Below, piece after piece: positions 48,601 to 51,600 of a DNA stretch of 64,000 nucleotides. The notes under the pieces are model-generated. The model searched no databases, had not been told where the DNA came from, and was given only the letters and a program-made list of their open reading frames with translations. Made by a program: the position numbers and the translations under genes. The first letter of the stretch is position 1. Every line of letters starts with the position of its first letter. This DNA is from Paraspadella gotoi (lineage: Eukaryota; Animalia; Chaetognatha), in contig CM119266.1 in NCBI GenBank assembly GCA_051294375.1, forward strand, positions 1,975,380 through 2,039,379. The letters are read 5' to 3'.

Positions 48601-51600
48601 GGTCAGAGTATGAAAGTGAAATCACTTCAAGGCGGAGAAGGTCAGTAAATGAAAGTGAGGGAATCACTTCAGAGCAGAGAAGGTCAGAGTATGAAAGTGA
48701 AAGATCATTTCAAGGCGGAGAAGTTCATTTGAGAACCGTGCGTTCTTCGGATCAGAAAAAGAAAGTCAAAGATTACTTGGCAGCTTAGCCTTAGTAGATC
48801 AGTGAACAAGAATCAAGGGTTGTTTCAAAGCAGTCGTCACTTATCAAGTTAAGGAAAATCCCTAAACTTGTACAATACACTCTTCGCTTTCAAAATTCAT
48901 TTGGAAGCGAAATTCAGCGATTATATTACATATTGAGTAAATAGTTTATCAGCCTTTTAAAATTTTGTACAATAAAATTAAAAATATCGAAAGCATCGTC
49001 ATCGCCATAAGCAATATCCGGCACCTTTTTCCATCGATGCCCTCTTGCCTTCTTGCCCTCTTGCAGCAAACTAAAACTGCTGCTTCCAACGTCGCTTTAT
49101 GCGTCACTCCCTTCGTCGTCGCTCTCACCGTCGCAACTGCTTCCTCCATCGTTCAAATTATCGTCGTCGTTTCTGTCGATCCCGATCCTGACCGATGAGT
49201 CACCCAGCAAGCCAGAATTTTGTTGTTGTAATAGTAGCGTAGGGAAAGACAACCCTAATCCCTAACCTTAATCCCTAACCCCAACCCTAATCCCTTACCC
49301 TAATATCTATCCCCTAATCTAACCTTATCCCTAACCGAAACCCTAAACAATTAATCCATTGTTCAAATTATCTTCGTTTTTGTCGATCCCGATCCTGACT
49401 CAGTCAGACGGCAAGGGGGCATCGAAGAGCATTTCGCCCAATATCCTTGATCCTCATCATTTTGGTTGTCTTTTGTTTTTTCATATCCTCCTCNNNNNNN
49501 NNNTCCTCCTCATATTTCTTCTCTCTCTTTCACTCGTCCGTCGTCGTCATCATCGTCGTTCTCGCAGACGTCGTCACCGGCGACATGTACAACCGGTTGA
49601 TGTCGCTCTGACTCCGCCGCAGCTCGTTCGCCGCTTCGTGCAGCTCCCGCAGCGCCAGCCGCCGCCGCGCCAGGATCGAGAGACGCCAAACGACGATGAG
49701 GCAGACGACGGTGGCGACGACGGCGGCGACGATGACGCCCATCGGGACGATGACTTCGGGCTTAGCGAAGATTTCTCGCCACGAGTCCGCGATGGAGGCG
49801 CAGACTTGGGAGAAGAAACGACGGGAGATGGCGCGAAGGTCGTTGTAGTTTTCCACGTGGAAGACGCGAGTGGCGTTGGGAGAGGGAGGAGGGGAGAAGG
49901 AGGAGGAGGAGGAGAAAGAGGACCTGTATGGAGGACGTTTTAGGTCATGTAGGTCAGGTCTCTGGCCACCAAGGTAACCGGTGGTTGATTAGCCACTGAC
50001 CTTACACTGAGGACACTTAGGCCAACTTTCGGTTATAAAAGCCGACAAGCTTACGACATTAACACAACTTGAAATCTCTTTAATACTTTCTCGTTCACCG
50101 TTATAATTGTTTATGTTAAACTCTTTACACATTGTATTAAATGTATCTTCATTTAAACCCGTCTCCTTATATCCTTATTTATCCTTATATATCCTTATAT
50201 ATGTACAATGTACAATGTAATACAATACAATGTACAAAGAGTTTAACATAAACAATTATAACAGTGAACGGGAAAGTATTAAAGAGATTTCGAGTTGTGT
50301 TAACGTCGTACTGTTGTTGGCTTTTATAGCCGAAAGTTGGCCTTAGTGTCCTCAGTGTAAGGTCAGTGGCTAATCAACCTAAAACGTCCTCCATACCTTG
50401 GGGAAATGACGATCCCCAAGTCGTCGTTGTTGTCGTCGTCTTCTCCCTCTTCCTCATTTTCTCCGGCGATGATTCTCAACTCGTCCTCGCTGGCTGCGCC
50501 AACGCCGATGGCGTAGAGGGTGACGTTGTTGGCGCGAAGGTCGGCGGATTTTTGGCGCAGAAGGAGACCGTCGTCGCTGACGCCGTCGGTCAAGACGAAG
50601 CCGAGAAGGAGGCGGGGGTCTGGAAGGGGGCAGAGGGGGAGAGGGGATGTTGAAGAGCGACTGATTTTGACATTCCCGCGTCCATTACGATATCAGTCAC
50701 TCGAAATTATCTTGAACCATGTCACACAGCATTCGGTCTATCTTTCAGTGATAACGTGTCATGTCATGCCAAATGTCACCTTCCCGTCTGTTCCTCTCGA
50801 ATTCTTCTTCCATCGCCAGTAGCCCCGCCCCCGTGTAAGTCATTCCATCCGATTGGTTGAGATTCTCGATTTTGTTTTTCAACAGAAGCGGAGACGAAAT
50901 GGAACCGAGTGGAATCCAGACCTGATGAATTGGAATTACCAATAGGTCTGGATAATAAAGCGTAGTAAAAATTATAAATCTAACTTTAATAAAAATTCTA
51001 ACCTGTTTTTCTGCCTTGCAATGTCTTTAAGACAATGCCCTGTCTGACCTCGGACCAATTGAAAAAAAAGAGACAAAAATAGCAGAAAAAACAGTGGCTA
51101 CGTATAATGTGTTTACCCATTTTTAATCGCCCATTATTTACTTGATATTTTTGCAATAATTTCTCTTGATTTTACAAATTTCACTCACTTGAACTTCTGT
51201 TGAATATTCGATGACGCCTATCCTGGCTGCGTCGTCTTCAAGCTCCATTCCTTGACTGATCAGAAAATCCACAAAGTTGCTCACGAATCGAAGACCTGAA
51301 AATTAGAACGAGTCAAAGAAAATTGCAGATACAGTAAAAGAGAAACAGTTACAACTTAGTTTAGATACAATAATTTAGAACAAATCTTTTAAGTTTGGCA
51401 ATAAATTGCCGTCCATTGTCAGTGTTTTGGTATTAAAAAGTGTGACGACCTTTTTATTCGATTAACGCTTAGGAATTAGATCGTGATCGACATAAAGCTT
51501 CGTCGGGATTTAACCGGTTATTGACCTTTTAACCTCGATAAAATCTGTGATAAGTCATATGATTGTGATGACCCATGATGACCTGTGATGACCTGTGATG

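What the first reader, a model, noticed from the sequence alone, without database searches (positions are those of the whole stretch)
49924..50396. Introner-like intron: a foldback transposon whose ends form the splice sites
Seen on the minus strand: exon ...CCAAG|GTATGGAGGACGTTTTAGGT ... ACCTAAAACGTCCTCCATAC-AG|GTCC. The inverted repeat starts at the donor GT and ends 2 nt before the exon; ~150 nt inner arms follow, with a ~40 nt extra segment in one arm. AG flanks both ends as a possible target duplication (a TA-target reading that removes 6 ancestral coding nt also fits), and the frame is preserved. Established: introners are DNA transposons that create introns using TIR and TSD bases as splice sites. 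Inference: a recent TE-made intron. The hairpin would form in both the VWA and the host pre-mRNA.
Basis: partly seen in the sequence, partly recalled or inferred. Interest (0 to 1): 0.75.

Follow-up and report, generated by a model that had tools for sequence, protein, structure and literature searches.

The report
Foldback transposon copy became an intron
One copy of a repeated hairpin-shaped DNA element fills almost the whole of an intron that a likely RNA contig shows cut out cleanly, and both splice signals likely came from the host letters duplicated at insertion, making this a probable new animal example of a known route to intron gain rather than a mass intron-making family.

Summary
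A 469-bp foldback element (50395-49927) fills a 473-nt GT-AG intron of a VWA+transmembrane gene. A probable-RNA contig skips the gene's three other introns and, by length arithmetic, exactly this one. The element is multi-copy. In 4 of 4 runs laid, sibling copies stop matching at 49927, so the family begins TATGG, not GTATGG. The donor G and the acceptor AG are therefore host letters, not transposon ends. TATGG..CCATA matches the published IS3EU signature (TAYGG..CCRTA, 6-bp TSD). The flanks fit a 5-6-bp duplication ending AG|G that lost 1-2 nt inside the intron, which gives a precise intron with no coding change (about 0.6). The main rival is a TA-target mariner MITE that removed two codons (about 0.2). 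No sibling was shown to be an intron, so this is a one-off transposon-made intron, not a demonstrated Introner family. Extras: a 40-nt deletion private to this copy is predicted to free a branch point, and six RNA-only A>G places hint at editing. Verdict: new member of a known kind.

The parts
49924..50396 (-). 473-nt phase-2 GT-AG intron (intron 4 of the VWA-TM gene)
   Evidence: sequence; X9 record 26 pieces 49520-49881 = letters 1-362 and 50395-50619 = letters 403-627, i.e. exactly 473 nt skipped
49927..50395 (.). 469-bp non-coding foldback element, ends TATGG..CCATA
   Evidence: arms; family boundary at 49927 from loose ends and contig ends in 4 of 4 runs
50380..50395 (-). outer 16 bp of the 5' arm, followed by a 40-nt deletion private to this copy
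   Evidence: arm alignment; contigs from 50350 onward at single-copy depth in X3, X4, X6, X7; an X6 loose end behind 50379 shows a sibling with the full arm
50224..50379 (-). inner 5' arm, 156 nt
   Evidence: I1; 12 differences to the 3' arm listed
50139..50223 (.). AT-rich centre with a 10-nt tandem repeat (50168-50202)
49983..50138 (-). inner 3' arm, 156 nt; the low-depth X9 contig (49983-50151) that likely carries the RNA-only A>G changes lies here
49943..49982 (-). 40-nt segment present only in the 3' arm; holds a branch-point-like CCTGAC (49958-49953), 30 nt before the acceptor
   Evidence: predicted unpaired probability of the branch A 0.99, against 0.0 for the hexamer in a control with both arms full. 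Branch use is inferred, not shown
50395..50396 (-). donor GT = host G plus the element's first T
50396..50401 (-). likely left copy of the target duplication (CCAAGG; 5-bp version CAAGG)
   Evidence: inferred
49923..49926 (-). CAG|G: acceptor AG; likely the eroded right copy of the duplication
   Evidence: inferred
50397..50619 (-). exon 4 of the VWA-TM gene (VWA core and acidic loop)
   Evidence: PF00092 E=8e-9; X9 record 26
49520..49923 (-). exon 5 (Ser/Pro loop, end of VWA, predicted transmembrane helix, tail)
   Evidence: X9 record 26; 52% identity to P0124 residues 279-379
50780..52256 (-). exons 1-3 (52256-51743, 51295-51189, 50921-50780)
   Evidence: three CT..AC joints in X9; P0124 matches all five exons
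48399..53514 (+). predicted intron of a carboxylesterase/neuroligin-like host gene that contains the whole VWA gene
   Evidence: flanking exon translations; family from an upstream exon; not checked with RNA

Best explanation
A multi-copy foldback element with TATGG..CCATA ends fills an intron that a probable-RNA contig shows removed at exact length, and it likely arose when an IS3EU/GingerRoot-type non-autonomous transposon inserted into an exon at a site ending AG|G and duplicated 5-6 bp. The last G of the left copy plus the element's first T would make the donor, and the AG of the right copy would make the acceptor, so splicing would restore the original reading frame letter for letter. The right copy would since have lost 1-2 nt inside the intron (AAG to CAG acceptor). 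A 40-nt deletion in the 5' arm is predicted to leave the branch-point segment of the 3' arm unpaired and removes a rival internal donor, which may have helped the copy persist. It looks like a one-off event: siblings seen elsewhere mostly lack the flanking G.
For: SHOWN: (1) Exact-length removal in X9 record 26, which also skips the 3 other introns at listed joints. (2) The element is joined to an exon in DNA contigs of 5 of 5 DNA runs laid (exon 4 side X3, X4, X6, X7; exon 5 side X7, X8). (3) Summed depth is 49-74 times single-copy at 49974-49991 and 10-34 times at 49938-49955 (the tool warns that depth is no copy number). (4) Loose ends before 49927 in all 4 runs (2, 7, 6 and 2 contigs; agreement 0.52-0.63), and an X9 collapsed contig of depth 74.6 ends exactly at 49927. 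KNOWN: IS3EU ends are TAYGG..CCRTA with 6-bp TSD and TIRs over 30 bp (PMC12730594, passage; fungal families), and TA..TA with usually 6-bp TSD (PMC10045372, passage). GingerRoot has 100-150-bp TIRs (PMC6839031, passages). COMPUTED: the flanks fit CAAGG minus 1 nt or CCAAGG minus 2 nt. The spliced coding sequence has 15 AGG sites in 1241 nt, but only 1 GTA among 25 TA sites and no GTA.AG site. INFERRED: order of events, benefit of the deletion, branch-point use.
Against: No exact 4-, 5- or 6-bp duplication exists at this site, whereas the TA reading needs no later mutation. Only one locus has both flanks; no sibling's two flanks could be paired. No transposase or autonomous partner was seen. 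The 40 letters next to the junction in the X9 contig were not displayed, so the junction rests on length arithmetic from one contig of one run whose RNA status is a guess (supported by 3 listed spliced joints). The internal donor scores no better than the used donor on a crude count (6 of 9 each). The intron lies in a loop whose length varies among homologs and is absent in P0110, so neither a two-residue loss nor an ancestral intron can be judged.
Confidence: 0.6

Rival explanations
1. A Tc1/mariner-type MITE (TGG..CCA ends) inserted into a TA within AG|G-TA-C-AG|G. Splicing uses the host G plus the duplicated T and a host AG 2 nt downstream, deleting two codons from a low-complexity loop.
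For: An exact TA lies on both sides with no later mutation needed. The family boundary at the T fits a TA duplication equally well. Sibling flanks are mostly AT-rich. Mariner-classed introners that co-opt both sites are listed in PMC12130899 supplement 8 (4 of the 11 rows shown are classed Mariner with 'co-opt both'). Codon loss at introner sites is reported (10.1101/2022.06.06.494994, passage).
Against: TA plus TGG matches the IS3EU signature at all 5 positions. The CAAGG / CAGG likeness of the flanks is then chance or splice-site selection. Such target sites are absent from the gene's spliced coding sequence (0 GTA.AG in 1241 nt).
Confidence: 0.2
2. An older intron existed here; the element inserted next to its donor and deletion removed the rest of the old intron.
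For: GTA and CAG are ordinary intron ends, and ortholog gene structure could not be seen (one search found no locus; two searches found no protein).
Against: Only 4 of the 473 intron letters lie outside the element. The flanks resemble a duplication. The position is in a loop that is missing in one of the four homologs that cover it (P0110).
Confidence: 0.08
3. The spliced contig comes from an allele without the element, and the element-bearing allele is not spliced cleanly.
For: No DNA of the X9 individual is on hand, and under the best explanation an empty allele gives the same mRNA. My test for an empty site had little power: one search did not even list the known spliced contig as a joint.
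Against: X9 holds a contig with this copy's 3'-arm letters at 50033, 50070, 50127 and 50128. All 5 DNA runs laid carry the element at the locus. Retention would truncate the protein before the predicted membrane helix.
Confidence: 0.06
4. One reading: the element runs GTATGG..CCATAC, carries its own donor, duplicates AG, and belongs to a family that makes introns wherever it lands in exons.
For: The perfect repeat includes the G/C pair and AG flanks it. One X9 sibling also has G before TA (matches from 49924). 43 loose-end rows were not shown.
Against: 17 contigs over 4 runs (overlapping loci) diverge at 49926, and a collapsed family contig ends at 49927. The one G-preceded sibling is retained in a 3194-nt X9 contig.
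Confidence: 0.04

Closest known systems
Introners with TA..TA termini: Amoebophrya sp. A120 fam38 (5-bp TSD, both sites co-opted) and Mycena polygramma fam6 (GingerRoot-like ends), PMC12130899 supplement 8, rows 580 and 524
   Same: TIR element with TA..TA ends; in fam38 both splice sites are recruited from outside the element.
   Different: Those are families of 4-5 intron-forming copies in a dinoflagellate and a fungus. Here it is one copy in an animal (inferred), non-coding, a near-complete foldback, with canonical GT-AG and an eroded duplication.
Introners in general (10.1101/2022.06.06.494994, passages; PMC11282704, parts 1-2 of 5)
   Same: A MITE-like element coextensive with a spliced intron; splice sites partly or wholly from the TSD or neighbouring exon.
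   Different: Defined by many similar introns per genome. No second intron-forming copy was shown here.
IS3EU / GingerRoot DNA transposons (PMC12730594, PMC10045372, PMC6839031; passages)
   Same: TAYGG..CCRTA ends and long TIRs; reported in animals.
   Different: No exact 6-bp TSD at this site and no transposase seen. No held paper has both 'introner' and 'IS3EU'.
Tc1/mariner (ITm) MITEs
   Same: Exact TA on both sides; short, non-coding, AT-rich palindrome.
   Different: A TGG start after TA matches the IS3EU signature instead; no transposase link could be tested.

Membership tests
Introner | element coextensive with a whole intron | tested here: met
   469 of 473 intron letters are element
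Introner | removed by splicing | tested here: met
   exact-length skip in X9 record 26; junction letters not displayed; one probable-RNA run
Introner | several similar copies that each form an intron | tested here: inconclusive
   no genome held; one copy in the window; sibling ends shown mostly lack the donor G and 7 of 10 X9 contigs run on into other sequence; 43 loose-end rows not shown
Introner | intron absent from orthologs or empty alleles | not testable with these tools
   homologs known only as proteins; no genomic locus found; empty-site test underpowered
IS3EU/GingerRoot | TA..TA ends, signature TAYGG..CCRTA | tested here: met
   TATGG..CCATA with the family boundary at the T
IS3EU/GingerRoot | TIR longer than 30 bp | tested here: met
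   arms of over 170 paired bp here; a sibling type shares the first 36 bp to 49962
IS3EU/GingerRoot | 6-bp target duplication | tested here: inconclusive
   no exact duplication; fits after one 2-nt loss (6 bp) or 1-nt loss (5 bp); single locus only. Hence called IS3EU-like, not filed as a member
IS3EU/GingerRoot | integrase-like DDE transposase in an autonomous partner | not testable with these tools
   no genome held
Tc1/mariner MITE | TA duplication | tested here: met
   TA/TA with 0 mismatches; cannot be told from TA-terminal ends at one locus
Tc1/mariner MITE | TIR shared with an ITm transposase-coding element | not testable with these tools
   no genome or TE library held
MITE / foldback element | short, non-coding, long TIRs, dispersed copies | tested here: met
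   no Rfam match in 49000-51500

The most novel reading that the evidence does not exclude
IS3EU-type foldbacks are latent introners in animals: because they start with T, every copy whose 5-6-bp target ends in AG|G (about 1% of exon positions here) yields a precise intron, and more such introns exist in this genome. This copy also shows how a very stable hairpin intron is tamed: a one-arm deletion frees the branch point, and ADAR edits the duplex.
Probability: 0.2. Interest if true: 0.65.

Novelty: new member of a known kind. Interest (0 to 1): 0.42.

Why it matters
Clear single cases of intron gain from a DNA transposon in animals, with RNA support and a readable mechanism, are useful because family-based introner screens need several similar introns and would miss a singleton. 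If the duplication is confirmed, it ties the IS3EU/GingerRoot end motif to a simple rule for precise intron gain at AG|G sites. The locus also offers a direct minigene test of how a -296 kcal/mol hairpin intron is spliced and whether the one-arm deletion was needed.

Tried and rejected
No whole genome is held, so copies could not be listed. No listed run is on record as RNA; X9 is a guess. The element's 23-nt end was not found in metagenome contigs. No ortholog locus was found there either: 480 pattern matches, 0 confirmed. Exon 4 and exon 5 found no longer homologs in the word-index search; the full HMMER search gave five likely homologs among the best 150 listed, all without names. No empty-site joint was listed, but the test is weak: one search dropped rows at a repeat beside the junction (including 1 joint in X3), and one search did not list even the known spliced contig. 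Boundaries tested and rejected: AT duplication with GG ends (would remove 8 nt and break the frame, and the family shares the outer TA); TWA duplication (the family contig includes the T at 49927); exact 3-9-bp duplications (none at any of six trimmings). A second TAYGG..CCRTA pair (29896/37125, 17 of 20) does not extend, and 2 of 100 shuffles reach 17: chance. Rfam: no match. Atlas: only generic VWA clusters below 0.9 for homolog P0124. Earlier scan notes: none.

Full report
Observation. The structure is as described. On the minus strand the exon ends at 50397, a 473-nt GT-AG intron spans 50396-49924, and the next exon starts at 49923. A perfect 20-nt inverted repeat sits at the intron ends, followed by 156-nt arms at 92%; the 3' arm has 40 extra nt. 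The RNA folds at -296.5 kcal/mol, z = -32. The gene encodes a VWA domain (PF00092) and a predicted membrane helix. A 393-aa unnamed homolog, P0124, matches all five exons at 47-52%. The gene lies antisense within a predicted intron (48399-53514) of a carboxylesterase/neuroligin-like gene. That the organism is an animal is inferred from these homologs; I did not determine the lineage.

Is the intron used? Nine runs hold the region, none on record as RNA; X9 is guessed to be RNA. One 1391-nt X9 contig skips introns 1-3 at listed CT..AC joints. It also has pieces 49520-49881 (letters 1-362) and 50395-50619 (letters 403-627). The 40 undisplayed letters equal the 40 exon letters 49882-49921, and the 2-letter overlap is the shared AG|GT, so exactly 473 nt are missing. 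The junction letters themselves were not displayed, and this contig was not listed because the flanks given were short. Retention would stop translation 11 codons in. All 5 DNA runs laid (of 8 listed) have a contig joining an element end to exon 4 or exon 5.

Where does the element end? Summed depth over the arm is 49-74 times the single-copy level, which indicates dispersed copies, though not how many. In 4 of 4 runs, contigs lose the match before 49927 (2, 7, 6 and 2 contigs, with unrelated, mostly AT-rich flanks), and a collapsed X9 contig of depth 74.6 ends exactly there. One X9 sibling matches from 49924, and 43 loose-end rows were not shown. The family thus begins TATGG. The donor's G and the CAG before the exon are host letters.

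Mechanism. Two readings remain. (a) TA is the element's end. TATGG..CCATA equals the IS3EU signature TAYGG..CCRTA, reported with 6-bp TSDs and TIRs over 30 bp (PMC12730594, passage; TA..TA also in PMC10045372, and PMC6839031). The left flank ends CCAAGG and the right flank begins CAGG, which fits a 5-bp duplication less 1 nt or a 6-bp one less 2 nt, with the loss inside the intron. A 4-bp duplication with one substitution is a variant of the same mechanism. The donor is then the duplication's last G plus the element's T, the acceptor is the AG of the second copy, and the mRNA is unchanged. (b) TA is a mariner-type duplication; no later mutation is needed, but two codons were lost. I favour (a), about 0.6 to 0.2, because of the 5-letter signature, the flank likeness, and target supply in this gene (15 AGG sites, 0 GTA.AG sites in 1241 nt). 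Against (a): no exact duplication, only one locus, no transposase. Homolog loops vary too much to show a two-residue loss.

The 40-nt asymmetry. Contigs that start at 50350 and cross the deletion point run at single-copy depth in X3, X4, X6 and X7, and an X6 sibling continues with the full arm, so the deletion looks private to this copy. The segment kept in the 3' arm has CCTGAC 30 nt before the acceptor. Its A is predicted unpaired (0.99), whereas the hexamer is fully paired in a control with symmetric arms. The lost segment would have offered an in-frame internal donor 48 nt in, though it scores the same as the used donor on a crude count. The donor itself is predicted fully paired in the finished hairpin, so recognition would have to precede folding. 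All of this is inference.

Editing. One search counts 12 A>G places in X9 against 7 in each of three DNA runs. The displayed rows account for every other kind of change in X9 and for all 7 DNA A>G places, which leaves 6 X9-only places, all A>G: one displayed (50061) and five deduced from the counts (6 of 6 against 7 of 47, Fisher p about 7e-5, treating places as independent). They likely lie on one contig of depth 2.1 (49983-50151) that has this copy's 3'-arm letters. A>G on the plus strand points to the host gene's pre-mRNA. This is a hint only: very low depth, and no DNA of the same individual.

Is it an Introner family? Not shown. The window has one copy. The sibling ends displayed mostly lack the G needed for a donor, and 7 of 10 X9 contigs on the element run on into other sequence. 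Ortholog intron positions were out of reach.

Comparison. Recruitment of both splice sites from the TSD or exon, and codon gain or loss, are described for introners (10.1101/2022.06.06.494994, passages; PMC11282704, parts 1-2 of 5). PMC12130899 (passages, section 6, supplement searches) lists TA..TA-ended Ginger-like introners in Amoebophrya (5-bp TSD, both sites co-opted) and Mycena. 'IS3EU' was not found in the 12 of 14 supplementary files searched; files 13 and 14 were not searched and the bioRxiv supplement is closed. No held paper contains both 'introner' and 'IS3EU'; 'introner' with 'Ginger' gave 9 papers, of which I read only the two Gozashti works, one as its preprint. Passages of PMC4455052, PMC11934779 and PMC7789003 were also seen and add only background.

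Verdict. A real, likely transposon-made intron; a new member of a known kind, with a plausible IS3EU-like origin and an untested tuning story. Interest 0.42.

Noticed in passing
window 49520-52256 (-) inside 48399-53514 (+): A five-exon VWA+TM gene nested antisense in an intron of a neuroligin-like gene. Five unnamed homologs exist (P0124, P0110, P0145, P0127, P0163); the nearest Atlas clusters are generic VWA proteins below 0.9, so the family seems uncharacterised.
   Followed up: partly
window 48376-48727: An 81/41-nt minisatellite repeats the end of a host exon together with its donor about seven times, offering tandem alternative donors.
   Followed up: no
window 49927-50173 (sibling contigs): The family has several subtypes that share the end but diverge at 49962, 50056 and 50170/50173; one has a short palindromic centre (49989 to 50152). 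Long loose ends could lead to an autonomous element.
   Followed up: no
window 49300-49440 and 50956-51001: Two other high-depth repeats: a telomere-like degenerate array with flanking repeats downstream of the VWA gene, and a 45-bp repeat in intron 2.
   Followed up: no
window 26591-27125 and 29701-30184: An approximately 500-bp direct duplication at 83% identity; the ORF list also suggests near-duplicate blocks at about 22500-23800 and 24500-25900.
   Followed up: no
window 47723-48172: A host exon appears duplicated across a 25-N gap at 47950-47974, likely an assembly artefact.
   Followed up: no
window 59242-63740 (+): Exons resembling an SLC1-type amino-acid transporter; resemblance recalled from memory, Pfam gave no clear hit.
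   Followed up: no
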